Source of the DNA: an uncultured Nitrospinota bacterium
GTDB lineage: Bacteria; Nitrospinota; Nitrospinia; UBA9942
Length of the DNA stretch: 14,649 bases
Assembly (NCBI GenBank): GCA_964391545.1
Contig: CAYMMR010000032.1
Location: forward strand, 1-14,649
Direction: 5' to 3'
Position numbers and translations under genes: made by a program. Under the pieces are notes generated by a model. It had not been told where the DNA came from and did no database searches. It saw nothing but the letters and a program-made list of their open reading frames with translations. Shown piece after piece: positions 1 to 13,630 of this stretch. The first letter of the stretch is position 1. The number at the start of each line of letters is the position of its first letter.

Positions 1-133
1 CTTGACCCTTCCGAATAAACTCCTCCGCCTTATCGTCTATCTCATAAAGCTCGTTATTCTTTATGTCATATATGTAAGGCTTTTCCAGTTTTTTGAGGGA
101 GCAGTGGGGAGAGAGCCTTAAAAATCTATTCAT
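1..133 (-). CDS. Partial CDS whose N-terminus lies in the window and continues beyond the left edge. The N-terminus looks like the PqqD/RRE-type leader-binding domain that opens many radical-SAM RiPP maturases.
   Basis: Reverse complement of 1..133 begins with ATG (131-133) and reads MNRFLRLSPHCSLKKLEKPYIYDIKNNELYEIDDKAEEFIRKGQ with no stop. The pattern xYDIxNNELYEIDDxAxEFI resembles the beta-strand/helix start of RRE-containing rSAM maturases (AlbA/SkfB-like). It is missing from the ORF track only because fewer than 60 aa are visible. Confidence 0.45.
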   Translation of the reverse strand, partial: MNRFLRLSPHCSLKKLEKPYIYDIKNNELYEIDDKAEEFIRKGQ

Positions 134-154
134 AAAAATTATAAAACCTTTTCA

Positions 155-313
155 CCACAAAGGCACAAAGATCACAAAGGAAATAAAAGAAAAAGATTGA
201 GGAGAAATAGAGAAACAGTGAAAGGGAGAAAAAATAATTTTTATTTTTCCCTTTCTTTTCTTCATCTTCTCCCTTCCTCCTTTCCTTTCTTTGTGTCCTT
301 TGTGTCTTTGTGG
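155..313. repeat. Roughly 160-bp imperfect palindrome with a purine-rich left arm and a pyrimidine-rich right arm, terminal CACAAAG / CTTTGTG modules, and an A/T palindromic centre.
   Basis: ccacaaaggcacaaagatcacaaagg (155-180) pairs with cctttctttgtgtcctttgtgtctttgtgg (284-313). The interior is gaggagaaatagagaaacagtgaaagggagaaaaaataa | tttttatttttccctttcttttcttcatcttctcccttcctcc. Confidence 0.6.
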
Positions 314-326
314 TTAATCAGGTTTT

Positions 327-635
327 TTATTCTTCCATTATCCTGTGGAGCAAAATAAAACCGCCGCACGGGGGGGCGATGCCGTAATGCTTTTCGTCTC
401 TGTAATCGCATCCATCGCTTAAAAAATCACACCTCTTACAGAGTATCTCCATAAGGATCGAGTCATATTTAAATACAGAAAGGCAATCTTTTTTACCGGG
501 ATTATTTGCAGGGAGAGGGAAAAATCTCTCGAAAAATTTGAATCCTTCGCAGCACAAATCTTCATTCTTAGATTCTTTGTAATATTTGCAGTATCCCTTG
601 CAGATTAAATCTATAAGATGCTTTTTTGTATCCAT
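327..635 (-). CDS. Cysteine-rich hypothetical protein of about 102 aa (9 Cys: CxxxC, CC, CxxC, DGC, PPCGG). Possible metal-binding protein or radical-SAM substrate/partner.
   Basis: ORF 327..644. The track's first M is a TTG lying inside the upstream GGGTCAAGG palindrome; the first ATG gives MDTKKHLIDLICKGYCKYY.... It lies between two radical-SAM genes on the same strand. No family was recognised. Confidence 0.55.
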   Translation of the reverse strand: MDTKKHLIDLICKGYCKYYKESKNEDLCCEGFKFFERFFPLPANNPGKKDCLSVFKYDSILMEILCKRCDFLSDGCDYRDEKHYGIAPPCGGFILLHRIMEE

Positions 636-636
636 A

Positions 637-708
637 GGATTCAAGGGGGCAAGGGTTCAAGGGTAAGTGCCTTTCACTTGAATCCTTGACCCCTTGACCC
701 CTTTTTCA
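637..708. repeat. Imperfect hairpin of GGGTCAAGG-type modules between the radical-SAM stop and the Cys-rich gene start, followed by a T-run on the plus strand.
   Basis: ggattcaagggggcaagggttcaagggtaagtg cctttc acttgaatccttgaccccttgacccc ttttt. The left arm overlaps the TTG pseudo-start of ORF 327..644. Confidence 0.6.
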
Positions 709-767
709 TCAGCAGGAGCTTTTGCATTTGCATAGCCCTTTAGCCACTTTTGCTACTTTTTTAATCT

Positions 768-2180
768 TCATACTCTTTCACCCCCTTTCAATCCCCTTAC
801 CTCTTGAACAACCTCTATGTTTATCATAGAAATGCTGCGTCCTCTTGCATAATCCTCTATGCTCTTTACCGCCTTCTTCCTTACAAAAAAGGGGATCTTC
901 ATTACTGCATCCTTTGCGTCCTGACTCCATGAGAGGCTTAATTCAGGCATAACACTTTCAGCCTCGGCATGGGCCGATTCCACATCTGTGAGGCTAAAAC
1001 CTCGCGCTACATTTTTATCGGATGGCTCATAAGCGCAGAACGGCTCTTCGGATAAATAATTTCCTGTTGCGCTGTATGCCCTCGCCCTGCATCCCTCGCA
1101 GATATGCTTAAACTCGCATACACCGCATTTTCCCTGGAGGAGGTCGGGATTTCTTAGATTTTTAAACACTAAAGAATCGTTCCATATATCCTGAAACCTC
1201 TCTTTTCTTATATCCCCTGCCTTTGCAGGCAGATAGCCGCAGGGAAATACTTCCCCTCTGTTAGATATAAAACATACCCCTGTCCCTGCAAGACACCCCT
1301 TTGTCATCGCAGACAGCCCGTGAGCAGACGCCTTACCTTCCCACTTTCCACCGAGGGACGAGATGGAATTTTTTGGCGTAGTTACCTTGTCCACATGCCC
1401 TGCTTTCAACTGCGTTCCGTGAGGGACGAATGGAGTGGGTTTTAGCCCCGCCTTTTTTTCCGATAGAATCCTCTCCGCCCTTACCCTGAAATAATGAGGG
1501 GCACAGGTAGCCTTCAAATCTATAGAGTGGAGCTTCGACTGGTCGTAAAACCAGTGGAGTATCTTTTCATATTCATCGGCGCTTACCATCTGGTCCTCTG
1601 CGATATCTACGCCGCAACCGACAGGCACAAGTAAAAAGGTATGCAGGGCATCCACACCAAGCTCCAATGCCAAATCCAGAATTTTAGGAAGTTCTTTAAA
1701 ATTATGTTTTGCAATTGTAGTATTTATCTGGGTTGATACGCTAAGCTCTATTAAATTTTTTATGCCTTCTATTGCCTTGTTAAACGAGCCGGGGATTGCG
1801 CGAAATTTATCGTGGGTCTCCGCCCTTGCCCCATCGAAGCTGATAGATATTCTGGCAAAACCTATATCCTTTATCCTCTTTGCCATTTCTTTATCAATCA
1901 TTGTCCCGTTTGTGGCAAGGGAGAGCCTCAACCCCTTTTTAATGCCGTATTCGGCTATCTCAAAAATATCCTTTCTGAACAGAGGCTCGCCGCCTGAAAG
2001 GACAAGTATGGGGTTTGAAAACTCTGCAATCTGTTCGATAAGGTCAAAGCCTTCCTGCGTAGACAATTCCACCTTTGACAATGAGGACTCAGGAACAGCC
2101 CTGCAATGAAGACATCTCAGGTTGCACCCTTTCGTAGTCTCCCAGAATATTAATCGTGGTATATATTGACGCTCTCCCAT
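768..2180 (-). CDS. Radical SAM/SPASM-domain enzyme (AhbC/AhbD/NirJ/PqqE-like) with a C-terminal extension of roughly 65 aa resembling the PCP_red domain (C-terminal domain of protochlorophyllide reductase BchB, PF08369).
   Basis: N-terminal PRLIFWETTKGCNLRCLHCRAV carries the CxxxCxxC motif. SGGEPL glycine-rich SAM motif. ISISFDGARAETHDKFRAIPGSF block. C-terminal Cys cluster GKCGVCEFKHICEGCRARAY (SPASM auxiliary cluster). The tail ...SWSQDAKDAVMKIPFFVRKKAVKSIEDYARGRSISMINIEVVQEV matches the W..A...L.KIPfFVR....E.fA...G...It.ev PCP_red pattern. Confidence 0.88.
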   Translation of the reverse strand: MGERQYIPRLIFWETTKGCNLRCLHCRAVPESSLSKVELSTQEGFDLIEQIAEFSNPILVLSGGEPLFRKDIFEIAEYGIKKGLRLSLATNGTMIDKEMAKRIKDIGFARISISFDGARAETHDKFRAIPGSFNKAIEGIKNLIELSVSTQINTTIAKHNFKELPKILDLALELGVDALHTFLLVPVGCGVDIAEDQMVSADEYEKILHWFYDQSKLHSIDLKATCAPHYFRVRAERILSEKKAGLKPTPFVPHGTQLKAGHVDKVTTPKNSISSLGGKWEGKASAHGLSAMTKGCLAGTGVCFISNRGEVFPCGYLPAKAGDIRKERFQDIWNDSLVFKNLRNPDLLQGKCGVCEFKHICEGCRARAYSATGNYLSEEPFCAYEPSDKNVARGFSLTDVESAHAEAESVMPELSLSWSQDAKDAVMKIPFFVRKKAVKSIEDYARGRSISMINIEVVQEVRGLKGGERV

Positions 2181-2185
2181 ATCTT

Positions 2186-2340
2186 TTATAATACTGCGAA
2201 ACTTTTTTTGGGCGACTTTTTATTTTTCCTTTTGCTCCAACCCCCCTCAATCCCCCCTTTTTTAAAGGGGGGAGGAAGGGGGGTTAAAATAGGACAAAAG
2301 AAAAAATAACGGAAGCGAAAAAAAAGGTTTCGCAGTATAA
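2186..2340. repeat. MITE-like intergenic element of about 155 bp, with 22-bp terminal inverted repeats and a central G6/C6-rich perfect-ish hairpin.
   Basis: Left TIR ataatactgcgaaacttttttt (2189-2210) pairs with right TIR aaaaaaaaggtttcgcagtataa (2318-2340). The centre (2239-2287) is aacccccctcaatccccccttttttaaaggggggaggaaggggggtt. No ORF is inside. Confidence 0.5.
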
Positions 2341-2342
2341 AC

Positions 2343-3554
2343 TTACATCCCCATCTTCTCCCTCGCCTCCTGCAGCACATCTTCCGTTATCTCTTTATAG
2401 CCCTTCTCTACAGCGTAACCGATTATCGCCTTTTTTGCCATATTTCTTACAAAAGGCGGTATCTTCTCGATACGGGACAGCGCCTCTTTTGTCCAGGGCA
2501 ATTCCTGACTTCCGACTTCTGTCTCCTGTCTTCTGTCTTCTTTTAATATATGCTTCTGTGTAACGATAAGAAGATTACAGGACGACTGAATCAGCAGATT
2601 TTCCGTTACGGAGCCCAAGTCAAGCCCGTTATCCGTATGATAACCGACTTTACCTGCTGCTGCCAGAGAAGGATTTTCCTTCTCTATATACTCCAGCACC
2701 TTATCGAACGGCCTGCCCGAAAAAAGGATCGTTTTTATATCCAGCCCCTCTTCTTTTGCAATTTTTTTTGCATTGTCCAGATGCCCCTGATATATCTTCT
2801 CCAGTCCTTTATCGATTATCTCGTCATGCAGCTTCTCCTGCTCTTTAAATTTAAAGAGCTTTCCGGCTTCCTCGGATAGAACCCCTGCAATACTCCTGAA
2901 GGCGACAACATGAAATTGAGGGTCGAATACAGCCACTGCCTCGAGGGGAAGATTAAATGCCTTTGCCAATGCAGCGCATCTTTTAACGGCAGCAAAGGAT
3001 TGGGGGCTTCCGTCAACCGCTACAATAATCTTTCTATCCCACTTTTCGGTTTTTTTTACAACCAGGATGTCGCTTTTAGACCTCCTTGCCACTCTCGATG
3101 TTACGCTTCCTATAAGGCTCCTTTTCAACGCACCAAGACCAAGCAAACCTATTATTACCAAATTGTATCGGCTTTCATTTATATCCTTCACAATCCGGGA
3201 ATAATTTTTGCCTTCCATGGTCTTCCGCTGAAATGCCACTCCGGCGCTCTTGCACATATTCTCGAAATGGTCAAGATATGAATCCGATATTATCTGCAAT
3301 CCCTTCGTTATCAGCGTGTCATGGATTTTTCTTTGACGGTCCAACTCCTCCTCTTCTTGATATTCGGGCGGAAGGCCGCTCTCCATCTGAGAAAATCTCT
3401 GGTCGTGAAGCCTGGCAGCATAAACATGATTTCCAATCAGAGTGGAATTGAATTTTCTTGCCAGAGAAATCCCGACATCTATGGCAAGATTGGAATGCTC
3501 CGAGTTGTCTACAGGGATTAATATGGTTTTAAATTGGCCGTTAAAATCCGACAT
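2343..3554 (-). CDS. Tandem universal stress protein (two UspA domains, both with an ATP-binding G-x2-G-x9-GS motif) fused to a C-terminal PCP_red-like domain.
   Basis: USP1 runs TILIPVDNSEHS...GLLGLGALKRSLIGSVTSRV. USP2 runs KIIVAVDGSPQS...GKVGYHTDNGLDLGSVTENLL. The tail PWTKEALSRIEKIPPFVRNMAKKAIIGYAVEKGYKEITEDVLQEAREK is the same motif as the tail of the neighbouring radical-SAM protein. A strong SD (GAGGAGGAGG) lies 4 nt upstream of the ATG. Confidence 0.85.
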   Translation of the reverse strand: MSDFNGQFKTILIPVDNSEHSNLAIDVGISLARKFNSTLIGNHVYAARLHDQRFSQMESGLPPEYQEEEELDRQRKIHDTLITKGLQIISDSYLDHFENMCKSAGVAFQRKTMEGKNYSRIVKDINESRYNLVIIGLLGLGALKRSLIGSVTSRVARRSKSDILVVKKTEKWDRKIIVAVDGSPQSFAAVKRCAALAKAFNLPLEAVAVFDPQFHVVAFRSIAGVLSEEAGKLFKFKEQEKLHDEIIDKGLEKIYQGHLDNAKKIAKEEGLDIKTILFSGRPFDKVLEYIEKENPSLAAAGKVGYHTDNGLDLGSVTENLLIQSSCNLLIVTQKHILKEDRRQETEVGSQELPWTKEALSRIEKIPPFVRNMAKKAIIGYAVEKGYKEITEDVLQEAREKMGM

Positions 3555-3678: not shown

Positions 3679-4047
3679 TTATTTTTCCCTATTCTTAAAC
3701 ACATCTCTTATCGTATTCCTTAATTCACTCAAGTCGGATGATTTTACCACATAGGCATCGGATGCCCATACCCTGAAATCCTGCTTATAATCGCTGTAGG
3801 CTGTGCACATCACTACAGGTATCTTGGCATCGGTCTCTCTTAATTTCCTTAAAAATTCTATGCCGTCCATCCCCGGCATCTTAACATCGAGCGTAATCAA
3901 ATCCGGATAGGATTCTTTCATTTTAATCATAGCATCTTCGGCATCCGAGGCTGTAATAACCTCATATCCCTCGTCTTCAAGCTCCTCCTTATATAGTATT
4001 CTTATATTCTCCTCATCATCGACTACAAGTATCCTCTTTTTTTCCAT
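3679..4047 (-). CDS. Stand-alone response-regulator receiver domain (CheY-like), cognate partner of the upstream GAF histidine kinase.
   Basis: VVDDEE acid pocket, phospho-acceptor LITLDVKMPGMDG, VMCTAY and YVVKS motifs. The track start MGGIM uses a TTG, so the ATG giving MEKKRILVV at 4045-4047 was chosen. A G-rich SD-like stretch (GGGGGG) lies upstream. Confidence 0.88.
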   Translation of the reverse strand: MEKKRILVVDDEENIRILYKEELEDEGYEVITASDAEDAMIKMKESYPDLITLDVKMPGMDGIEFLRKLRETDAKIPVVMCTAYSDYKQDFRVWASDAYVVKSSDLSELRNTIRDVFKNREK

Positions 4048-4062
4048 AATACCCCCCAAAGA

Positions 4063-4135
4063 TAAGCAATGAGCAATGAGTGCCGAGCAATGAGTCTCAT
4101 TACTCGTTGCTCATTGCTCGTTGCTCATTGCTTTT
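4063..4135. repeat. Roughly 70-bp near-perfect palindrome built from the GCAATGA(G) heptamer. The right arm lies inside the last 11 codons of the histidine kinase.
   Basis: agcaatgagcaatgagtgccgagcaatgagtctcattactcgttgctcattgctcgttgctcattgc. The right arm encodes the repetitive C-terminal tail ...[10 protein letters not shown] of the kinase. Confidence 0.7.
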
Positions 4136-6058
4136 TCTTTGCCTTCTCGGCAGATTAATAATGAATGTGGCGCCTTCGCCGACCCTGTTATTTATCTCTA
4201 TCGTTCCTCCGTGGCTCTCGACTATCTTCCTGCTTAACGAAAGTCCGAGACCCGTCCCGTATTTTTTAGTCGTAAAAAAGGGATTAAATATATTCTCTAA
4301 AATATCGGACGGTATCCCGCCGCCGGTATCGCTTATGCTTATCGTTACACCTTCCTCGCCGCTCAGAGTCTCCGTCTTTATTGACATAACCCCACCCTTC
4401 CCTGTCATAGACTCCACTGCATTATATAAAATATTGGTAATAACCTGCTTTATTTGAGGAGGGTCAATGCTTAAAGGACGAATTGCATCCGACATATATT
4501 TTTTAATTTCTATGCCGCTCTCCCAGAATGTATGCTCATAGAACGACAATAGCTCTTCGATTATGCCGTTTATATCGTTTTCCGAAAAATTAGGCTTTAT
4601 ATCCCTCGAATAGTTGAGTATATCCTTGAGGAGTCTTTCCAGCCCCTCCACCTCGCTGATTATTATGCTTGCATAGCTTTTCTCCTCGGATGTCGGCTCG
4701 TATTTTTCGGAGAGCCTCCTTGCAAATCCGCCGATAGTTACCAGAGGATTTTTTATCTCGTGGGCAAGCTCTGCTGCAAGCTCTCCAAGCGCCGAAAGCC
4801 TCTCCGACTGCACAACCTGCTGCTGCGCGGAGACGATTTCCCTATTCGCCTCCTTTAATTTTGCAAAAAGTTTCGAGTTTTCGATCGCCCATCCTGCATG
4901 AACTGCAAACCTTACGAGTGTCTGAAGGTCTTCATCCATTATGGGCTTGCCGGTATAGATATTATCCACTACTATAACGCCAAGCACATTTTCCTTTGCA
5001 ATAATCGGAACCGTGGCAAAGCTTTTAACCCCGCTCTTATTAATAATATCATGATTCACCCTCCTATCGTTCCATGCATCCTTTATATTGAAAGGCTTCT
5101 TTTCCATGACTGTCAGGGCTATAACCCCGCTCTCCACGGCTATAGGCAGTCTTATCCCTTTTATAAATTTATCATACATGGATTCTTTTTTTGCAGGCGC
5201 CTCCCCCTGAGATATAAGCCATGAAGACAGTTCGGTAATATGCGGCATCCTGCTCCATATCTGCTGCGCCTCTTCCCCAGAATCCGGACCAAGCCCCATC
5301 ATGCCCTGAATAGTGTCTGTCTTCTCATTAACAAGCAAGAGTCCTGCCCTGTTAAATCCGAATGCTCCGCCTGCGGTAACACAGCTTAATATTATCCTCA
5401 GCAATCTATCGAGATTAACGGTAGTCTGCATCGCAATGCTCATCTCATAGAGCATGGACAGCTCCCTCAATCTCTGTGTCGCCTTTTCATAGAGTTGCGC
5501 ATTTTTTATTATCCCGGATACCTGATCCGCTATTGTCGCCAGCAGCTTTATATCGTCCTCCGAATAATCGGTTTCTTTAATATTCTGGGTATATATAACG
5601 CCTATGCAGCAGTTCCTATCCATAATCGGAACCACAAGGACGGATTTAAACCTCTCCTCTTCCGTTACCGGGAAATGAATAAAGCGGGGGTCGCTTGCAG
5701 CATCCTTAAGCGACGCCGCCTTTTTGTTCTGGCATACCCACCCTGAAATCCCTTCGCCCATTCTAAGTATGACCTTGTTGATTGAAGCAGGATTTAAGCC
5801 CCTTGTAGCCTTTAACATAAGATTTTTACCTTCTTCGTCAACGAGGAGTATCGAGCAGGCATCTGCATTGGTATATTTTACGATTACCTCGACAATAGAA
5901 TTGAGCCTGTCTTCCAATTCCAGCGATGAATTGGCAATCCTGCTTACCTCGCTTAAAATCTCGAGCCGGTTGACCCCGCCGATTTTTTGCGCGGCTTTTT
6001 CTACCCTTCTTAAATGAGATTTTGATTTGGCCGGTTTCATATAAAAATATAGGGTCAT
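4100..6058 (-). CDS. Cytoplasmic sensor histidine kinase with GAF-GAF-HisKA-HATPase_c architecture.
   Basis: Two GAF-like blocks (…[13 protein letters not shown]…; …[12 protein letters not shown]…). H-box [21 protein letters not shown] boxes ISDTGGGIP...[20 protein letters not shown]. No TM segments. The track start at 6079 is a TTG inside a palindrome, so the true start is probably ATG 6058 ([10 protein letters not shown]) or 6040 (MKPAKS). Confidence 0.88.
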
Positions 6059-6115
6059 GGGGCAAGGGGCATGGGTCAAGAAAAACCTGACCCTTGCTAC
6101 TTGACCCTTGACCCT
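6051..6115. repeat. Imperfect palindrome of GGGTCA(A/T)GG modules spanning the HK start and the glgA stop.
   Basis: Left arm agggtcatggggcaaggggcatgggtcaag, loop aaaaac, right arm ctgacccttgctacttgacccttgaccct. The right arm encodes the glgA C-terminal residues GSRVK*. The left arm creates the spurious TTG-initiated MTHAPCP extension of the kinase ORF. Confidence 0.65.
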
Positions 6116-7601: not shown

Positions 7602-7665
7602 AAGGGGTCAAGGGGTCGAGTGAAAATCTAAACGAACCCTTGAACCCTCGAACCCGCGAACCCTT
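7602..7665. repeat. Imperfect hairpin of GGGGTCAAGG / GAACCC modules between the glgA start and the galT-like stop.
   Basis: aaggggtcaaggggtcgag ... gaacccttgaaccctcgaacccgcgaaccctt. The reverse complement of the right arm matches the left arm in about 15 of 19 positions. Confidence 0.55.
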
Positions 7666-8757: not shown

Positions 8758-8823
8758 AATAGTTAAGTTGTTGAGTGGTTGAGTTGTTAAACTACTCAAC
8801 TACTTAACAACTCAACTATTTAA
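8758..8823. repeat. Imperfect palindrome of GTTGAGT / ACTCAAC modules upstream of the PAS histidine kinase.
   Basis: atagttaagttgttgagtggttgagttgtt aaa ctactcaactacttaacaactcaactattt. Confidence 0.6.
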
Positions 8824-8835
8824 ACCCACTAATCG

Positions 8836-10356
8836 ATGAAAAAGGCGAAGGAATTAAAAATCTTAACGGACAAATTAGACCGGTCTTTAAAAGAGATAGC
8901 GGGACTAAAGACAAAGCTGGAGGAGTCCGAAAGGAGGTACTATGACCTCTATGAAAATGCGCCGGATATGTATCATACAATAAATACTAAAGGCATAATA
9001 ATTGACTGCAATAAAACAGAGGCAGAGGCATTGGGATATTCGAAGGAAGAGCTCATAGGACGGTCCGTGCTGAATATTCAGACGGAAGAATCTAAAAAAA
9101 TAGGAAAGGCCGCCATGAAAAAACTCTTTTACGCCGGAAAGGTAAAGGGGCTCGAACTCCAGTTTATAAAGAAAAACGGCGAGGTAATGGATGTCAGCAT
9201 AAACGCCACTGTTATATACGATAAAAACGGAAAACCTGCCGGCACAAGATCGGTAATCAGGGATATTACAAAGAAAAAGAGGATGGTGGAAATAATTAAA
9301 AACTCCAGACGCGAACTGCAGGCAACAATAGACGCCATAACGGATGGAATATGCCTGCTGGATAGGGCGTTTAGAATAGAACGGATAAATAAAAGCATGG
9401 CGGGGCTTTTCGGCAAATCACCCGTAGAGTTTATCGGCAAAAAATGCTATACTGTTTTCGAAAACAGGGAAAAGGTATGCGAGGGGTGCAAAATTATGGG
9501 AACATTTACCTCCGGAGAACCTGTGATTTATAACGATATTAAAAATATCGGCTACGGCACATCGCTCGAAGTTGAAATATCGGTATTCCCCGTTAAAGGC
9601 AATAAAAAAAAGGTGGAACAGGTGGTCTATTATATGAAAGATATAACGGAAAAGAGGAGGCTGGAGAGAGAGCTTGAGTATTCCAAAATCATGGCTTCGC
9701 TGGGTGAAATGGTAACAGGCGTCGCCCACGAGATAAGAACGCCGCTTCAGAACATACTTACGGGCATAGACCTTTTGGAATCCGAGGCAAAAAAGAAGGA
9801 TTTGAATCTTGAGGTGGCGGAGAATTTGAGAGATTTTGCAATTGATATGAACTATATCGTTCAGGAGCTTTTAGATTTCTCAAAGCCGGTAAAACTCGAA
9901 ATCGAGGAAAGGGATGTAACGGATATTATCGACGAAACGATAAAATATTTCAACCCGCGGATGAAGAAATGTAATATAATCGTATCCAGAAAATACAGCC
10001 GTCCGATAAAAAAGACATCTATAGATGTAAGGAGGATAAGGCATGTCTTCTTAAATATAATCGAGAATTCCATTAATGCCATGCCCGATGGCGGGGAAAT
10101 TACCGTGTCGGCCGAACCGTATTATGATAATAAGGGGGAATTTATCATAATAGTATTTTCCGATACGGGCCGCGGCATAGCCTCAAAAAACATCGGCAAG
10201 GTGTTCAATCCTTTTTTTTCAACGAGGACGGAGGGGATAGGGATGGGGCTTGCAGTGGCAAAAAAATTCATCAAGCTGCACAACGGCGAGATTAACATAA
10301 CCAGTAAAGAAGGGAAGGGATGCGAGGTAACGATATTACTGCCGGTAAAGAAGTAG
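8836..10356 (+). CDS. Cytoplasmic sensor histidine kinase with coiled-coil-PAS-PAS-HisKA-HATPase_c architecture.
   Basis: PAS1 YYDLYENAPDMYHTINTKGIIIDCNKTEAEALGYSKEELIGRSV. PAS2 carries an unusual C-x10-C-x2-C (CYTVFENREKVCEGCKIMG). H-box VTGVAHEIRTPLQNI. G-boxes FSDTGRGIASKNIGKVFNPFFST…GMGLAVAKKFIKLHNGEI. Confidence 0.88.
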   Translation: MKKAKELKILTDKLDRSLKEIAGLKTKLEESERRYYDLYENAPDMYHTINTKGIIIDCNKTEAEALGYSKEELIGRSVLNIQTEESKKIGKAAMKKLFYAGKVKGLELQFIKKNGEVMDVSINATVIYDKNGKPAGTRSVIRDITKKKRMVEIIKNSRRELQATIDAITDGICLLDRAFRIERINKSMAGLFGKSPVEFIGKKCYTVFENREKVCEGCKIMGTFTSGEPVIYNDIKNIGYGTSLEVEISVFPVKGNKKKVEQVVYYMKDITEKRRLERELEYSKIMASLGEMVTGVAHEIRTPLQNILTGIDLLESEAKKKDLNLEVAENLRDFAIDMNYIVQELLDFSKPVKLEIEERDVTDIIDETIKYFNPRMKKCNIIVSRKYSRPIKKTSIDVRRIRHVFLNIIENSINAMPDGGEITVSAEPYYDNKGEFIIIVFSDTGRGIASKNIGKVFNPFFSTRTEGIGMGLAVAKKFIKLHNGEINITSKEGKGCEVTILLPVKK

Positions 10357-10568
10357 TGTCAAAGTGTCAGAGTGTCAAAGTTTTAAACTAATGGATAGTC
10401 CCACAAATAGCTTTACCATAGTTTGTCATTCTCGCGAAAGCGGGAATCCAGTAAAATCAAAGACTGGATTCCGCATCGAGTGCGGAATGACAGTAAAGGA
10501 ACTTTAGAGACACTCTACTAACTATGACACTTTGATACTTTGATACTCTGACACTGCTTTGAGGTTTT
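10356..10568. repeat. Complex nested palindromic element between the HK and RR genes. Outer inverted arms are made of GTGTCAAAG modules. The inner 67-nt core is symmetric and can fold into a four-way junction.
   Basis: Outer left arm 10356-10380 gtgtcaaagtgtcagagtgtcaaag. Outer right arm 10525-10555 tgacactttgatactttgatactctgacac. Inner core 10425-10491 GTCATTC-tCGCgaaaGCGgga-ATCCAG-taaaatcaaaga-CTGGAT-TCCGCAtcgagTGCGGA-ATGAC. Confidence 0.65.
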
Positions 10569-10961
10569 ATGGACAAAGGCTCTATATTAATCGTGGATGA
10601 TGAGGATTTTGCAAAGAGCGGGCTTGCAAAAATTCTTGCGGAAGAGGGGTTTTCCGTTCATACTGCCGATGACGGAAAATCCGCACTGTCGGAAACAAAA
10701 AACAGAAGATTCGATTTGATTATAACCGACATAAAAATGCCTGAACTGGACGGCATAGAGCTTACAAGAAGCCTGAAGAAAAAAAATCCCAACCAGCATA
10801 TTATCGTTATGACCGCATACGGTAATATCGATTCTTATCTCGAGGTAATGAATTTAGGCTCCTTCGATTATATTCATAAGCCCTTCACTGCAAAGGAATT
10901 GCTGAGAATAGTAAACAAGGTATTTGAAGAGATAAAGGAGAAAGAATTTGACACAACATGA
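10569..10961 (+). CDS. Stand-alone response-regulator receiver domain (CheY-like), partner of the PAS histidine kinase.
   Basis: ILIVDDEDF, phospho-acceptor LIITDIKMPELDG, IVMTAYGN and YIHKPF motifs. GAGG SD 6-7 nt upstream. Confidence 0.88.
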   Translation: MDKGSILIVDDEDFAKSGLAKILAEEGFSVHTADDGKSALSETKNRRFDLIITDIKMPELDGIELTRSLKKKNPNQHIIVMTAYGNIDSYLEVMNLGSFDYIHKPFTAKELLRIVNKVFEEIKEKEFDTT

Positions 10962-10965
10962 GTGA

Positions 10966-11031
10966 ATTGATATAGTGTTAAGTAGTCGAGTGGTTAAACA
11001 ACTCAACAACTTAACTAAAATGGAGGTTAAA
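10966..11031. repeat. Imperfect hairpin of GTTAAGT / ACTCAAC modules between the RR stop and the tatA start.
   Basis: gttaagtagtcgagtggtt aaa caactcaacaacttaac. It uses the same module family as 8758-8823. Confidence 0.55.
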
Positions 11032-11250
11032 ATGTTTGGAATAGGAATGCCCGAGCTGATTGTTATTCTGGTTATTATTCTGATAATATTTGGCGCAGGC
11101 AAGCTTCCCGAGATAGGCGCAGGACTCGGAAGGGGCATAAAGAATTTCAAGAAGGCAACCAAAGAAGTTCAGGATGAGGTTGAGACAACTGCAAAAATCG
11201 AAGAAGAAACAGCCAAAGCAGAGCCTAAGGCCGACGCAAAAAAGGCATAG
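11032..11250 (+). CDS. tatA: Twin-arginine translocase subunit TatA/E.
   Basis: [42 protein letters not shown] is the canonical TatA TM-hinge-amphipathic-helix signature (compare E. coli [42 protein letters not shown]). GGAGG SD 5 nt upstream. The track ORF starts 57 nt earlier, inside the palindrome. Confidence 0.9.
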
Positions 11251-11257
11251 ACTGATA

Positions 11258-11340
11258 ATAGGTAAAGAGGCAAAGAGGTTAAGAGGCTAAAAGGTAAAGG
11301 CAATGCCCCTTGACCTCTTTGCCTTTTAACCTTTTTACCT
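11258..11340. repeat. Imperfect palindrome of AGGNNAAG modules between the convergent tatA and REC-GGDEF genes. Likely bidirectional terminator region.
   Basis: Left modules aggtaaag aggcaaag aggttaag aggctaaa aggtaaagg. Centre caatgcccc. Right arm ttgacctctttgccttttaacctttttacct is the reverse complement of the same modules and is T-rich at its 3' side. Confidence 0.55.
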
Positions 11341-12277
11341 ATTCACCCCTCAAGTCCTTCACATACTTGCTCCCTTTAAGCGATTTGGCATACTTCTTTA
11401 AATCCGCGGCAATGGCGCTTGCCTCTCCGAGGTGGTTTATCTTTCTCTTTTCGTTCGTCACCACTGCGACAGAGATAGTCATAATCGGGAATCTCTCCTT
11501 TTCCCCTTTTCTATTCACTGAATCCATATATCCTCTCACCCTGTCCTCCTCGTCATAAAAGGTGGTTATCAAGAGGTCAAAGTATTTAATAATCTGCCTG
11601 CATGCGCTTTCTACAAGCTCAACCGGCACTATGAATACAAAATCATCGCCGCCTACATGCCCGACAAATGTATCCGGGCAATTTAACTCCCTGACGGCAT
11701 TTGTTACGACACGGGCTGTCATTCTTAGTATCTCGTCGCCCCTGCTAAAACCGTATTTGTCATTATATGGCTTGAAATTATCGAGGTCTATGTAGGCAAG
11801 GGCAAACTTTTTATTCAAATCAACCCTCTTTTGCCCCTCTTTCATAATAGAGTTATTGCCCGGCAGGCGGGTAAGGGGATTGGCATCCAGTTCTCTTGCC
11901 GCTCTTGAAAAAGAAAGAGAAACCCTTAAGGTTAAGTCGTCGGAATTAAGAGGTTTTATAATATAATCGTCTGCCGGAATGGAGTCCCAGACGATTTTAC
12001 CCCGTTCAAATCCGGATGGTATAAGCAGTATCACAGGAAGGTGTCCATATACGGTATCGGACTTTAATTGACGGCAGAGTTCATCCCCTTTTATAGAGGG
12101 CATTTCAATGGCAATTATTATCAAATCCGGAGGCTCGTTGTATATTGCATCGAGCGCATTTTTACTGTCTTCCGTATAATACGCAAGATAGCCCTTTTCC
12201 CCGAGAGTGTTCCGAATAAATTCTGCGGTTCGAGAATCGTCATCTATTATTAAAATTCTCTTTTTACTTTCGGACAT
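11339..12277 (-). CDS. Response regulator with REC plus GGDEF (diguanylate-cyclase) domain. The active-site motif is GGDDF rather than GG(D/E)EF.
   Basis: REC: ILIIDDD, LIIIAIEMPSIKG, IIKPL. GGDEF domain: ALAYIDLDNFKPYNDKYGFSRGDEIL ... TFVGHVGGDDFVFIVP. Confidence 0.88.
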   Translation of the reverse strand: MSESKKRILIIDDDSRTAEFIRNTLGEKGYLAYYTEDSKNALDAIYNEPPDLIIIAIEMPSIKGDELCRQLKSDTVYGHLPVILLIPSGFERGKIVWDSIPADDYIIKPLNSDDLTLRVSLSFSRAARELDANPLTRLPGNNSIMKEGQKRVDLNKKFALAYIDLDNFKPYNDKYGFSRGDEILRMTARVVTNAVRELNCPDTFVGHVGGDDFVFIVPVELVESACRQIIKYFDLLITTFYDEEDRVRGYMDSVNRKGEKERFPIMTISVAVVTNEKRKINHLGEASAIAADLKKYAKSLKGSKYVKDLRGE

Positions 12278-12297
12278 TGCTTAAAGGAAGTAACCAC

Positions 12298-13161
12298 TCA
12301 ACTGCTTTTTTGTTCATTAGCTGCGGCAAACATGGAGTCGTCAATATTCTCGAGGCTTTCTTCCATATCTCCGATAATCTCTTCGAGTATTTCCGGGGTA
12401 ATCTTCAGGCTCTCCCATGCCGCCTTATCTATTAAGGGGACGAGACTGTCGCCGCTGAATCCAAACCCCTTTGCCCTGATAAGAATATCGGACAAATGTG
12501 TCATGGCTGTCTGCCTCGGGGCAAACCTCGCCAGATGAGGCTGATGATGGTAGGCAATCGGGTCCGAAAGGTTTTTAGGCAGATTCCATTTTTCGCAGAG
12601 CCAGCTTCCGACAGTTGCGTGGGTAAAATCAAAAATCTTCATCTCCGCCTCATACATGGAGATATTTTTATCGCCGACCATTTTCTCTATATTTCCAGAT
12701 TCCTCGGGCATCTCCAATTTAATGACAACCTTGCCGAAATCATGCAGAAGAGCCGCAACGGATACCTCTTCCGGTTCGGGCTGATTCAATTTTCTTGCAA
12801 TGGCGCCTGCAGTCATTGCGCATCCAAGAGAATGCTTCCAGAGGTCAACCATGCCTTTGCTCATCATGATGTCGAAGACAGAAGTGCTTAATACCAGCCC
12901 CTTAACCACATTGAAACCCAGCAGCACGAGCCCGTGGGTTACATTGGATATCCTGCCGGGAAATCCATAAAAAGCGGAATTTATAAGCCTCAATACCTTT
13001 GCAGATAGTATCTGGTCGCTGGATATGATCTTTCCAACCTCTTCTGCGGATGTAGAAGAACTCTCCACCATAAGGCTTATTTTCTGAATAACGCCGGGGA
13101 GGGTGGGGAGATTCTTCAATTCCTCGATTCTTCTCCTGATTTTGCTTTTTTCTAAACTCAT
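12298..13161 (-). CDS. HDOD-domain (HD-related output domain) signalling protein, co-operonic with the REC-GGDEF gene across a 20-nt gap.
   Basis: LPTLPGVIQKISLMVESSSTSAEEVGKIISSDQILSAKVLRLINSAFYGFPGRISNVTHGLVLLGFNVVKGLVL is the HDOD signature, followed by a degenerate HD-like region (ALLHDFGK...). Confidence 0.82.
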   Translation of the reverse strand: MSLEKSKIRRRIEELKNLPTLPGVIQKISLMVESSSTSAEEVGKIISSDQILSAKVLRLINSAFYGFPGRISNVTHGLVLLGFNVVKGLVLSTSVFDIMMSKGMVDLWKHSLGCAMTAGAIARKLNQPEPEEVSVAALLHDFGKVVIKLEMPEESGNIEKMVGDKNISMYEAEMKIFDFTHATVGSWLCEKWNLPKNLSDPIAYHHQPHLARFAPRQTAMTHLSDILIRAKGFGFSGDSLVPLIDKAAWESLKITPEILEEIIGDMEESLENIDDSMFAAANEQKSS

Positions 13162-13180
13162 TTTATTTATAAAAACACCG

Positions 13181-13314
13181 GAACACGAATTACACTAATA
13201 TACGAATGGCACGAATAAAAAAATCGAAATTGAGGCAATTTTTTAATTTTAATCTTTGATTTTTAATCTTTGATTTTCATTCGTGTAATTCGTCCATTCG
13301 CGCTATTCGTGTTC
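13181..13314. repeat. About 35-bp inverted repeats of ACGAAT(A/G) modules flanking a roughly 60-bp AT-rich spacer with a tandem 13-mer (ttttaatctttga x2).
   Basis: Left arm gaacacgaattacactaatatacgaatggcacgaat. Right arm attcgtgtaattcgtccattcgcgctattcgtgttc, whose reverse complement shares the outer 10 and inner 6 nt with the left arm. Direct repeat at 13246-13271. Confidence 0.55.
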
Positions 13315-13630
13315 ATGTTTTTATTCCCATCTTCTCTCTTATCCGTTTCTCGAATATCTCCTTTATCATCTTCATCACAGGGTCGGAGGAAATCTTTTCA
13401 AACCGCTTCTCCAAATCCCGAAGCTGCTCTTCGGGGGGCTTTTCTGCAACCCCTGTATCGACAGGATGCCCCTCTACCGTTATCTTCGGAATTCCCATGT
13501 TCGAAAGTCGGGATATAAGTGCATCGCTCAATTCAACACCCTCGCCGCAGAGAACCAGCCCCTTTTCATTCAATACGGATTTTGCCAGCTTCATCCCCGG
13601 TTTTGCCAGACTTAAAGGTATCTTTTGCAT
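13313..13630 (-). CDS. Small protein (about 105 aa) resembling the N-terminal DUF3391-type domain that precedes HD-GYP and other c-di-GMP signalling modules.
   Basis: MQKIPLSLAKPGMKLAKSVLNEKGLVLCGEGVELSDALISRLSNMGIPKITVEG fits the L.pGM.la.dv....G.lL...G..L....i.rL...Gi..i.v pattern. The track ORF's first 14 aa (MFFFSLALTLTCFF, TTG start) are translated palindrome. Confidence 0.5.
   Translation of the reverse strand: MQKIPLSLAKPGMKLAKSVLNEKGLVLCGEGVELSDALISRLSNMGIPKITVEGHPVDTGVAEKPPEEQLRDLEKRFEKISSDPVMKMIKEIFEKRIREKMGIKT

What the first reader, a model, noticed from the sequence alone, without database searches (positions are those of the whole stretch)
1..767. Cys-rich 102-aa protein sandwiched between two radical-SAM genes, the downstream one starting with an RRE-like motif
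On the minus strand the order is rSAM/SPASM-PCP_red, then a 9-Cys small protein (CxxxC, CC, CxxC, PPCGG), then a gene whose first 44 aa (MNRFLRLSPHCSLKKLEKPYIYDIKNNELYEIDDKAEEFIRKGQ) resemble the PqqD-like RiPP recognition element that opens sacti-/ranthipeptide-type maturases. A precursor immediately upstream of an RRE-bearing rSAM is the canonical RiPP arrangement. The 102 aa with Cys spread along the whole length would be an unusually large substrate, and could instead be a thioether-crosslinked small protein, by analogy to QhpC/QhpD. The rest of the left gene is outside the window.
Basis: partly seen in the sequence, partly recalled or inferred. Interest (0 to 1): 0.62.

Follow-up and report, generated by a model that had tools for sequence, protein, structure and literature searches.

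The report
Seven-cysteine protein paired with radical-SAM enzyme
A small cysteine-rich protein of an undescribed but widespread family sits beside, and in other bacteria is fused to, one particular radical-SAM enzyme; it is probably that enzyme's protein substrate or its metal-binding partner, and not a classical secreted peptide antibiotic.

Summary
On the minus strand, 327-635 encodes a 102-aa protein with 9 Cys, and a gene starting at 133 is cut by the contig end after 44 codons.

Orthologous Nitrospinota loci show that this cut gene has an about 95-aa PqqD/RRE-like N-domain, a radical-SAM (rSAM) core and a canonical SPASM Cys motif.

The Cys-rich protein belongs to an uncurated family of about 179 clusters at 50% identity. 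Its only invariant residues are 7 Cys. It is an internal duplication of a roughly 45-aa unit with 3 Cys.

In 80 metagenomic loci of the rSAM family, 72 of the 75 testable loci carry the module next to the enzyme:
- 8 as a separate full-length gene
- 48 as a single-repeat 54-aa mini protein
- 4 transcribed divergently
- 12 fused in frame to the enzyme's N-terminus

The upstream AhbD-like rSAM is only Nitrospinota-specific synteny.

No protease or exporter is conserved and there is no leader/core split. A divergent subfamily sits next to pseudouridine synthases with no rSAM.

Best reading (about 0.45): the rSAM modifies this folded Cys protein, in the manner of QhpC or SCIFF. Main rival (about 0.35): it is an Fe-S/Zn accessory subunit.

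The parts
2..133 (-). 5' end (44 codons, ATG at 133-131) of the RRE-like/radical-SAM/SPASM enzyme gene. The rest lies beyond the contig end.
   Evidence: Sequence read directly. It is 83% identical over 42 aligned residues to the N-terminus of the full-length 419-aa orthologue P0017. Orthologues in L002, L004 and L010 carry Radical_SAM (69-71 bits), CNLSCxHC and CX2CX5CX3C.
134..326 (.). Intergenic spacer forming a hairpin of about 170 nt whose arms are built of CACAAAG-like units. It is not conserved in orthologous loci, where the two genes abut, overlap or are fused.
   Evidence: RNA fold -73.3 kcal/mol; shuffles average -40.5; z = -7.6. Similar hairpins fill most intergenic regions of the window, so it is probably a genome-wide repeat type and not a system-specific attenuator.
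327..635 (-). Gene for the 102-aa seven-Cys protein, stop codon included. The conserved Cys are C12, C16, C29, C66, C69, C76 and C90.
   Evidence: ORF and translation. 13 close homologues and 179 clusters in the exhaustive HMM search. The seven Cys are the only invariant columns in 119 sequences. No Pfam, NCBIfam or PDB match.
501..635 (-). Repeat 1 of the Cys-rich protein (residues 1-45): helix, C12-x3-C16, loop, C29-E-G-F, helix.
   Evidence: hhalign of the N-half against the C-half: probability 92%, E 6e-7, with C12=C66, C16=C69 and C29=C90. Single-repeat 54-aa homologues align to either half. AF2 secondary structure.
330..473 (-). Repeat 2 of the Cys-rich protein (residues 55-102): helix, C66-x2-C69, an insert carrying C76-D77, then P-C90-G-G-F and a helix.
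   Evidence: D77, P89, G91 and G92 are at least 90% conserved.
768..2180 (-). Neighbour, not part of the conserved module: an AhbD-like radical-SAM/SPASM protein with a C-terminal PCP_red domain.
   Evidence: TIGR04545 heme b synthase, 459.5 bits against a cut-off of 500. It is adjacent only in Nitrospinota loci and absent from the Desulfobacterota-type loci.

Best explanation
The 102-aa protein and the truncated gene to its left form a dedicated two-component module.

The protein is a folded, two-repeat, seven-cysteine small protein of a previously uncurated family. The enzyme is one specific family built as RRE-like domain + radical-SAM core + SPASM domain, presumably holding three [4Fe-4S] clusters.

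Shown:
- the pairing
- the co-divergence of the two partners
- the recurrent in-frame fusion of the Cys module to the enzyme's N-terminus
- the internal duplication
- the exclusive invariance of the seven Cys

Inferred: the Cys-rich protein is the enzyme's own substrate or scaffold. The N-terminal winged-helix domain holds it. The radical-SAM/SPASM core uses 5'-deoxyadenosyl radical chemistry to convert some of its Cys thiols into intramolecular cross-links, most plausibly Cys-S-to-carbon thioethers as made by SkfB, CteB and QhpD. The product would be a cross-linked, or cofactor-bearing, intracellular small protein and not an exported, leader-cleaved peptide antibiotic.

In fused versions the enzyme would mature its own N-terminal domain once, much as fused borosin methyltransferases modify their own tail.

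The upstream AhbD-like radical-SAM gene belongs to heme metabolism and is not part of the module.
For: Pairing. Of 80 metagenomic loci found with the enzyme alone, 72 of the 75 with readable upstream DNA carry a Cys-module HMM hit next to the enzyme: 8 full-length upstream, 48 single-repeat 54-aa upstream and overlapping the enzyme start, 4 divergent, 12 fused. The same order holds in all Nitrospinota loci.

Fusions. L013/L025 reads ...PCGGFIL-MNRFLKLSPHC... in one frame. The 500-529-aa Desulfobacterota proteins P0048, P0073, P0123 and P0063 are also fused.

Enzyme architecture. The enzyme matches peptide/protein-modifying rSAM-SPASM maturases:
- the best PDB sequence hit is SkfB
- the AF2 model (pLDDT 86) aligns over 373 columns with SkfB and 453 with SuiB
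- the SPASM motif CX9-15GX4C...CX2CX5CX3C...C is invariant
- the N-domain gives weak PqqD hits (Pfam in 3 of 19 members, best E 0.021; NCBIfam PqqD E 0.0031), plus CcpM and actinodefensin-B hits

Self-contained unit. No other gene is conserved across the module types. The fused gene stands alone between opposite-strand genes in L017-L019. In the mini-type lineage a second peptide-type modifying enzyme, an ATP-grasp, follows in 26 of 30 testable loci, which fits the small ORF being the thing modified.

Co-divergence. Median identity of module versus enzyme is 70 vs 70%, 77 vs 85% and 54 vs 73% in the three types.
Against: - The module is predicted to be a compact helical protein (pLDDT 78, pTM 0.72). 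It is conserved along its whole length at about the rate of the enzyme, which is unlike typical RiPP precursors.
- No leader/core split, protease or exporter is seen.
- A 3-Cys (+His/Asp/4th Cys) unit repeated twice is the arithmetic of metal or Fe-S ligation.
- A fusion of substrate to enzyme means a single turnover and is rare.
- A divergent subfamily keeps all seven Cys but sits next to RluA-type pseudouridine synthases or CutA1 with no rSAM within about 5 kb. Other members are fused to a class-II aaRS-like protein or a cupin. The Cys pattern can therefore be maintained without this enzyme nearby.
- The N-domain model reads bbbb-a-b-a, not the canonical bbb-aaa RRE order (criterion from PMC12710340).
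- No acceptor motif is conserved; the PapB-like CX3D is not conserved.
- The enzyme gene of this window is itself truncated, so everything about it rests on orthologues.
Confidence: 0.45

Rival explanations
1. Accessory metalloprotein. The seven-Cys module is a structural Fe-S- or Zn-binding subunit or domain of the radical-SAM enzyme. It would act as an electron relay to the clusters (as Dph3 does for Dph1-Dph2), as a cluster donor, or as an adaptor. The enzyme's true substrate would be encoded elsewhere.
For: - The only invariant residues are 7 Cys, arranged as two homologous 3-Cys units. The extra ligand candidates are C76/D77 in repeat 2 and His in the mini form CKHC.
- A compact helical fold is predicted, and the protein is conserved at enzyme-like rates.
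- N-terminal domain fusions are frequent.
- The mini gene overlaps the enzyme start by 17 nt, which suggests 1:1 translational coupling.
- The family also occurs without the rSAM and fused to unrelated proteins.
Against: - SPASM enzymes already carry two auxiliary clusters for electron transfer.
- A substrate-binding RRE-like domain would then have no visible client, because no other small ORF or conserved gene accompanies the module across types.
- The ATP-grasp in mini-type loci is left unexplained.
Confidence: 0.35
2. Classical RiPP. The 102-aa protein is a leader-plus-core precursor of a secreted sacti- or ranthipeptide natural product, which is cleaved and exported after thioether formation.
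For: A Cys-rich small ORF lies upstream of an RRE-like rSAM-SPASM enzyme. The closest solved relative is the sactisynthase SkfB.
Against: - No protease, ABC exporter or immunity gene is conserved in any of the roughly 100 loci examined.
- The conserved Cys span residues 12-90, with no variable core.
- The variable part is only the 38-54 linker and the C-terminal tail.
- A folded structure is predicted.
- Fusion to the N-terminus of the enzyme is incompatible with release unless there is a dedicated protease.
Confidence: 0.07
3. Three-gene tetrapyrrole unit. The AhbD-like rSAM with PCP_red, the Cys-rich protein and the downstream rSAM act together in heme or tetrapyrrole modification, and the Cys-rich protein is a heme or Fe chaperone.
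For: The order Usp-PCP_red, AhbD-like-PCP_red, Cys-rich, rSAM is conserved in all Nitrospinota loci. One distant member (P0296) lies 2.5 kb from an rSAM/SPASM-HemE-HemH cluster.
Against: Outside Nitrospinota the AhbD-like gene is absent from the neighbourhood. The nearby rSAM in L017 resembles a tungsten-cofactor maturase, not AhbD. None of the 48 mini-type or 12 fused-type loci showed it.
Confidence: 0.05
4. Chance neighbour. The Cys-rich protein is a housekeeping metalloprotein with no functional tie to the left gene.
For: rSAM-free subfamily contexts exist.
Against: Adjacency in 72 of 75 testable loci across phyla, and 13 independent in-frame fusions.
Confidence: 0.03

Closest known systems
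SCIFF peptides and their maturase CteB/Tte1186 (ranthipeptides; from my own knowledge of the family)
   Same: - A Cys-rich gene product sits directly upstream of an RRE + radical-SAM + SPASM enzyme.
- It is conserved across a whole lineage.
- No dedicated protease or exporter is present.
- The precursor sequence is unusually well conserved.
   Different: - SCIFF is about 45 aa with 6 Cys clustered in the C-terminal core behind a leader. Here there are 102 aa, two homologous repeats and Cys along the whole length, with a predicted fold.
- No NCBIfam SCIFF or SCIFF-maturase model is matched.
- The module is often fused to the enzyme.
QhpC/QhpD (gamma subunit of quinohemoprotein amine dehydrogenase, cross-linked by a radical-SAM/SPASM enzyme; from my own knowledge)
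   Same: A radical-SAM/SPASM enzyme acts on a roughly 100-aa Cys-containing protein that stays a protein. Multiple intraprotein Cys thioethers are formed.
   Different: - No qhpA/qhpB dehydrogenase subunits, QhpE protease or QhpG are nearby.
- There is no sequence match.
- The conserved Cys-to-Asp/Glu spacing is absent.
- The present module is self-contained.
SkfA/SkfB and SuiA/SuiB (solved RRE-rSAM-twitch/SPASM peptide maturases)
   Same: Best sequence and structure matches to the enzyme. The AF2 model aligns over 373 columns with SkfB and 453 with SuiB. The domain order is the same.
   Different: - Identity is only 15-22%.
- Their substrates are short leader-core peptides.
- The N-domain here lacks the middle helix of a canonical RRE.
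Borosins (OphMA-type fused and SonA/SonM-type split systems; from my own knowledge)
   Same: One family exists both as separate substrate and enzyme genes and as a single polypeptide in which the enzyme modifies its own appended substrate.
   Different: Borosins use SAM-dependent N-methyltransferase chemistry with a C-terminal substrate tail. Here the enzyme is a radical-SAM enzyme and the appended module is N-terminal and folded.
Dph3/Kti11 with Dph1-Dph2 (small Cys4 iron protein donating electrons to a radical-SAM-like enzyme; from my own knowledge)
   Same: A small Cys-rich metalloprotein serves as the dedicated redox partner of a SAM-cleaving [4Fe-4S] enzyme. This is the model for the main rival explanation.
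   Different: No sequence or fold similarity was detected. Dph3 is a CSL zinc finger, is never fused to its enzyme, and its partner lacks SPASM and RRE domains.
AhbD heme b synthase (TIGR04545), for the upstream gene only
   Same: 459.5 bits over both halves of the model; radical-SAM plus SPASM.
   Different: The score is below the 500-bit cut-off. The match is split by an insert of about 55 aa, and the protein carries an extra C-terminal PCP_red domain. It is not linked to the Cys module outside Nitrospinota.

Membership tests
RRE-dependent radical-SAM/SPASM peptide-maturase system (sacti-/ranthipeptide type) | Maturase has a radical-SAM core with CX3CX2C | tested here: met
   Orthologues carry CNLSC(R/K)HC and Pfam Radical_SAM at 69-71 bits. 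The feature cannot be read in the window itself, because the gene is cut after 44 codons.
RRE-dependent radical-SAM/SPASM peptide-maturase system (sacti-/ranthipeptide type) | C-terminal SPASM domain with the 7-Cys motif CX9-15GX4C...CX2CX5CX3C...C | tested here: met
   All seven Cys are invariant in 24 and in 40 aligned homologues, and an eighth is at least 90% conserved. The model aligns at full length with the SPASM enzymes SuiB and anSME. Caveats: the Pfam SPASM HMM itself does not score, and mini-type enzymes have CxCX5CX3C.
RRE-dependent radical-SAM/SPASM peptide-maturase system (sacti-/ranthipeptide type) | N-terminal PqqD-like RRE (bbb-aaa winged helix) | tested here: inconclusive
   - Weak hits only: Pfam PqqD in 3 of 19 members (best E 0.021); NCBIfam PqqD E 0.0031 in 1 of 19; actinodefensin-associated B in 6 of 19; the CcpM profile aligns from residue 19.
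- The AF2 model shows bbbb-a-b-a, so the middle helix is missing.
- A PDB profile search of the domain found nothing.
RRE-dependent radical-SAM/SPASM peptide-maturase system (sacti-/ranthipeptide type) | Cognate small ORF adjacent to the maturase | tested here: met
   72 of 75 testable loci.
RRE-dependent radical-SAM/SPASM peptide-maturase system (sacti-/ranthipeptide type) | Precursor with a leader/core organisation, and a leader protease and/or exporter in the cluster | tested here: not met
   Conservation and Cys span residues 1-37 and 55-96; only the linker and tail vary. A folded structure is predicted. No protease or transporter is conserved.
RRE-dependent radical-SAM/SPASM peptide-maturase system (sacti-/ranthipeptide type) | Cys-S to carbon thioether cross-links in the product | not testable with these tools
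   Needs mass spectrometry or NMR of co-expressed protein.
QhpC/QhpD system | Genetic context with qhpA and qhpB (dehydrogenase subunits) plus QhpE and QhpG | tested here: not met
   The window and the orthologous loci carry Usp, an AhbD-like gene, two-component genes, GlgA, GalT and MTHFR instead.
SCIFF (six Cys in forty-five) family | Match to the curated SCIFF peptide or maturase models | tested here: not met
   NCBIfam gives no family for the Cys-rich protein. No SCIFF maturase model appears among the 25 best enzyme hits shown.
PapB-type ranthipeptide precursors | Conserved CX3D/E donor-acceptor motifs | tested here: not met
   C66xxxD70 and C76xxxD80 exist in the window protein. However, position +4 is commonly Pro or another residue across the family (CxxCPF), and only D77 is at least 90% conserved.
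Ferredoxin / rubredoxin / zinc-finger metal-binding domains | Sequence or fold match to a known metal-binding family; bound metal | tested here: inconclusive
AhbD heme b synthase (upstream gene 768-2180) | Score above the TIGR04545 cut-off of 500 bits | tested here: not met
   459.5 bits in two stretches. It is a close relative with an insert and an added PCP_red domain.

The most novel reading that the evidence does not exclude
The seven-Cys module is a tethered or carried scaffold, not a peptide precursor. The radical-SAM/SPASM enzyme would build something new on it: either an intraprotein thioether network that creates a protein-derived redox cofactor, or a remodelled Fe-S cluster assembled on its two 3-Cys sites, in the way NifB works with its carrier domain. 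In the fused forms this would be a self-maturing, single-polypeptide radical-SAM system, a radical-SAM counterpart of the fused borosins. It would be widespread in anaerobic Desulfobacterota, Nitrospirota and Nitrospinota.
Probability: 0.18. Interest if true: 0.85.

Novelty: new variant of a known kind. Interest (0 to 1): 0.58.

Why it matters
Radical-SAM/SPASM enzymes with peptide-binding domains are a main source of new post-translational chemistry. This pair is abundant: at least 567 confirmed loci in one metagenome scan, and 179 clusters at 50% identity for the small protein. It is absent from Pfam, NCBIfam and the PDB, and I found no paper describing it.

It departs from the RiPP paradigm in three ways that can be tested:
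- the partner is a folded, internally duplicated protein
- that protein is repeatedly fused to the enzyme
- no processing or export genes accompany the pair

If the protein is the substrate, this would add a cytoplasmic protein-maturation system to the few known, such as QhpC and the anaerobic sulfatase-maturating enzymes (anSME). It could also reveal new cross-link or cofactor chemistry. If the protein is a metal-binding partner, it would define a new dedicated redox or cluster-handling subunit for SPASM enzymes. Either outcome is reachable with one co-expression experiment.

Tried and rejected
- PapB-like CX3D donor-acceptor motifs. They are present in the window protein but not conserved in the family. 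Rejected as a defining feature.
- Functional link to the upstream AhbD-like rSAM. Rejected, because it is adjacent only in Nitrospinota.
- QhpC and SCIFF membership. No model hits and the wrong context.
- A PDB profile search with the N-terminal domain alone gave only chance hits.
- hhalign of the Cys family against the RRE-like domain gave no relation.
- The genome-contig scan with the close alignment returned only 4 Nitrospinota MAGs, because the search patterns were narrow.
- The metagenome scan with the broad Cys alignment failed for lack of a conserved stretch. I scanned with the enzyme alignment instead.
- Rfam found no RNA family in the window.
- The consensus promoter/terminator scan was at background level.
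- Four literature searches found no description of the family.
- AF2 coordinates and PAE are not returned by the tool. I therefore could not check Cys-Cys geometry in the model, or whether the fused module docks into the active site.
Full report
**1. What is in the window**

On the minus strand the order is as follows.
- 2343-3554: a tandem-Usp protein with a C-terminal PCP_red domain.
- 768-2180: a 470-aa radical-SAM/SPASM protein that also ends in PCP_red.
- 327-635: a 102-aa Cys-rich ORF.
- 134-326: a 193-nt spacer.
- From the ATG at 133: a gene that leaves the contig after 44 codons.

The small ORF has nine Cys, at positions 12, 16, 28, 29, 51, 66, 69, 76 and 90. The other 12 proteins of the window contain 1.1% Cys, which gives a binomial P of about 2e-6.

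Two refinements apply. The true start is the ATG at 635, because every homologue begins MD(N/T)KK. The spacer to the next gene folds into a hairpin of about 170 nt (-73 kcal/mol, z -7.6).

**2. The upstream radical-SAM gene is a bystander**

The upstream gene scores 459.5 bits on the heme b synthase model TIGR04545, whose cut-off is 500. The match is split by an insert.

The string Usp-PCP_red, AhbD-like, Cys-rich, rSAM recurs in every Nitrospinota locus. It does not appear in any locus from other lineages. The radical-SAM gene near the fused form in L017 resembles a tungsten-cofactor maturase, not AhbD.

'Sandwiched between two rSAM genes' is therefore lineage-specific synteny.

**3. The left gene**

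Its 44 residues are 83% identical, over 42 aligned residues, to the start of the full-length 419-aa Nitrospinota protein P0017. The orthologues are 387-429 aa and are built as follows.
- An N-terminal extension of about 95 aa.
- A Radical_SAM core with CNLSC(R/K)HC, scoring 69-71 bits in Pfam.
- A C-terminal region in which CX9-15GX4C...CX2CX5CX3C...C is invariant.

The Pfam SPASM HMM itself does not score. JGI annotates several of these proteins as SPASM-domain radical-SAM proteins.

The best PDB sequence hit is the sactisynthase SkfB. An AF2 model of a fused homologue has pLDDT 86 and pTM 0.83. It aligns with SkfB over 373 columns and with SuiB over 453 columns.

The N-domain gives only sub-threshold PqqD-type signals:
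- Pfam PqqD in 3 of 19 members, best E 0.021
- NCBIfam PqqD at E 0.0031
- actinodefensin-associated protein B in 6 of 19 members
- a CcpM profile alignment that starts at residue 19

Its modelled secondary structure is bbbb-a-b-a. The canonical order required in PMC12710340 is bbb-aaa. I call it RRE-like, not a proven RRE.

**4. The Cys-rich protein family**

A word-indexed search found only 13 close Nitrospinota relatives. An exhaustive HMM search found 179 clusters at 50% identity with E up to 1e-3. Most are stand-alone proteins of 100-130 aa.

In an alignment of 119 diverse members the only invariant columns are seven Cys: C12, C16, C29, C66, C69, C76 and C90. D77, P89, G91 and G92 are at least 90% conserved. 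Mean column identity is 19%. C28 and C51 of the window protein are not conserved.

The protein is an internal duplication. hhalign of the N-half against the C-half gives 92% probability and E 6e-7. It pairs C12 with C66, C16 with C69 and C29 with C90, and places C76 in an insert.

Single-repeat 54-aa versions exist, with consensus M.LDKESLIDLICKHCDFYKESEKDLECGAYKILK.LLEKG.ITPEEI. They align to either half of the full-length protein.

**5. The link between the two genes**

I searched metagenomes with the enzyme alignment alone and collected 80 loci; 567 of the 600 pattern-matching stretches were confirmed by tblastn. I then looked for the Cys-module HMM in six-frame ORFs of those loci. The results were:
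- 8 loci with a full-length module just upstream
- 48 loci with the mini form, overlapping the enzyme's start
- 4 loci with a divergently transcribed full-length gene
- 12 loci with the module fused in frame to the enzyme's N-terminus
- 5 loci with too little upstream DNA to test
- 3 loci with none

That is 72 of 75 testable loci.

Fusions occur even within Nitrospinota: L013/L025 reads ...PCGGFIL-MNRFLKLSPHC... in one frame. They are also common in Desulfobacterota-type proteins of 500-529 aa.

Module and enzyme co-diverge. No other gene is conserved across all types. The fused gene can stand alone between opposite-strand genes. The mini-type lineage adds an ATP-grasp directly downstream in 26 of 30 testable loci, while the full and fused types never do.

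**6. The reverse test**

I looked up six distant Cys-family members.
- P0284 (Nitrospirota) has the enzyme divergently adjacent.
- The subfamily MRS..ERLERLVCAEHCRFFKPW... (P0298, P0300, P0304) keeps all seven Cys but has CRYR in place of CDF. It is followed by an RluA-type pseudouridine synthase, with no such rSAM within about 5 kb.
- P0290 follows CutA1, and no rSAM was called on its 5.5-kb contig.
- P0296 lies at a contig end.

Single representatives are fused to a class-II aaRS-like protein, to a cupin, or to a REC-PAS-HisKA_3 protein. The seven-Cys fold therefore also exists away from this enzyme.

**7. Interpretation**

The data establish a dedicated module of one seven-Cys protein and one RRE-like rSAM-SPASM enzyme. 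The direction of the relationship is inferred.

For the substrate or scaffold reading:
- The enzyme's architecture and nearest solved relatives are all peptide or protein maturases whose substrate is the adjacent small ORF.
- The unit is self-contained.
- The peptide-binding-type domain would otherwise have no client.
- A second peptide-type enzyme, the ATP-grasp, joins in one lineage.
- Fused and split forms of one system have a precedent in borosins (my own knowledge).

For the metal-binding accessory subunit reading:
- Only the Cys are invariant, in a 3+4 arrangement, or 3 Cys plus His in the mini form.
- A compact fold is predicted.
- Conservation is at enzyme-like rates.
- The mini gene is translationally coupled to the enzyme gene.
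- N-terminal fusions are frequent.
- rSAM-free subfamilies exist.

The classical secreted-RiPP reading is the weakest. There is no leader/core split and no protease or exporter, and fusion to the enzyme argues against release.

My estimates are 0.45 for the substrate/scaffold model, 0.35 for the accessory metalloprotein, 0.07 for a classical RiPP, 0.05 for a tetrapyrrole-linked trio and 0.03 for coincidence.

**8. Novelty**

The kind of system is known: a Cys-rich product paired with an RRE-like rSAM-SPASM maturase. Neither family is curated, and four literature searches found no description.

The variant features are unusual: a folded, duplicated 7-Cys protein, recurrent fusion to the enzyme, a single-repeat mini form, and no processing genes. 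I rate it a new variant of a known kind, of moderate to good interest. It can be tested directly by one co-expression and intact-mass experiment plus metal analysis.

**9. Limits**

- The enzyme gene of this window is truncated, so its properties rest on orthologues that are 83% identical over the part that can be compared.
- AF2 coordinates and PAE were not available, so Cys geometry and docking could not be examined.
- The reverse association was sampled in only six look-ups.

Noticed in passing
window 134-330, 629-705, 2191-2338, 4059-4145, 7602-7664, 8760-8823, 10363-10555, 10963-11017, 11257-11343, 13173-13322: Almost every intergenic region carries its own long hairpin whose arms are built from short tandem 6-9-nt units (CACAAAG, CAATGAG, GGGTCAAG, GTTGAGT and others). 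The one at 134-330 folds at -73 kcal/mol (z -7.6). 8760-8823 and 10963-11017 are related to each other. This looks like a genome-wide family of palindromic intergenic elements of unknown role.
   Followed up: partly
L004 8369-9658 compared with L002 8329-9522; the C-terminal tails of P0006 and P0011; L010 6434-7669: Related Nitrospinota genes contain translated copies of such repeats. One is an in-frame insert of about 30 aa (PPNPPLTSPLSPPFKGGEGEVAKGGRGDF) between the rSAM core and the SPASM domain of the L004 enzyme; it is absent in L002. Lys/Arg-rich C-terminal tails look like read-through into CACAAAG-type elements. The GC-rich palindrome at window 2245-2300 is of the same kind.
   Followed up: no
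window 768-2180 and 2343-3554 (minus strand): The 45-aa PCP_red domain (the C-terminal domain of protochlorophyllide reductase subunit B) is appended both to a tandem universal-stress protein and to the AhbD-like radical-SAM/SPASM protein next to it. This pair is conserved in all Nitrospinota loci. It suggests a shared tetrapyrrole-binding or docking function.
   Followed up: partly
L014 9412-10362 and 25 further mini-type loci (for example L033, L041, L047, L088): An uncurated 316-aa ATP-grasp protein (PF02655 at 26 bits; no NCBIfam hit) follows the enzyme directly in 26 of 30 testable loci of the single-repeat (54-aa) type. It never does so in the full-length or fused types.
   Followed up: partly
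L102 5001-6496, L103 467-1962, L105 3489-5154, L106 690-2294: A divergent seven-Cys subfamily (MRS..ERLERLVCAEHCRFFKPW..., with CRYR replacing CDF) is always followed by an RluA-type pseudouridine synthase, and in three of the four loci (not L105) then by SerA. No radical-SAM partner is nearby.
   Followed up: partly
L017 9887-10480 (minus strand), 10855-11184 and 11251-12333; protein P0193: Fused-type loci share two further features. One is a convergent SAM methyltransferase resembling archaeal protein-lysine methyltransferases (73 bits). The other is a 109-aa cupin-like protein, about 2 kb downstream, followed by a rSAM/SPASM that resembles a tungsten-cofactor maturase. The same cupin-like protein is fused to a seven-Cys domain in P0193.
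   Followed up: no
proteins P0255 and P0186: The seven-Cys domain also occurs at the C-terminus of a class-II aminoacyl-tRNA-synthetase-like protein (P0255, 416 aa) and of a REC-PAS-HisKA_3 protein (P0186, 474 aa). I did not check whether these are real fusions or gene-calling or assembly artefacts.
   Followed up: no
window 3679-6079 and 8836-12277: The rest of the window is dense in signalling genes: a GAF histidine kinase with a CheY-like receiver, a PAS histidine kinase, two further receivers (one REC-GGDEF) and an HDIG protein. It also holds glycogen genes (GlgA and a GalT-like gene) and HflC. The GalT-GlgA-HK-RR-Usp string is syntenic with the Cys-rSAM pair across Nitrospinota.
   Followed up: no
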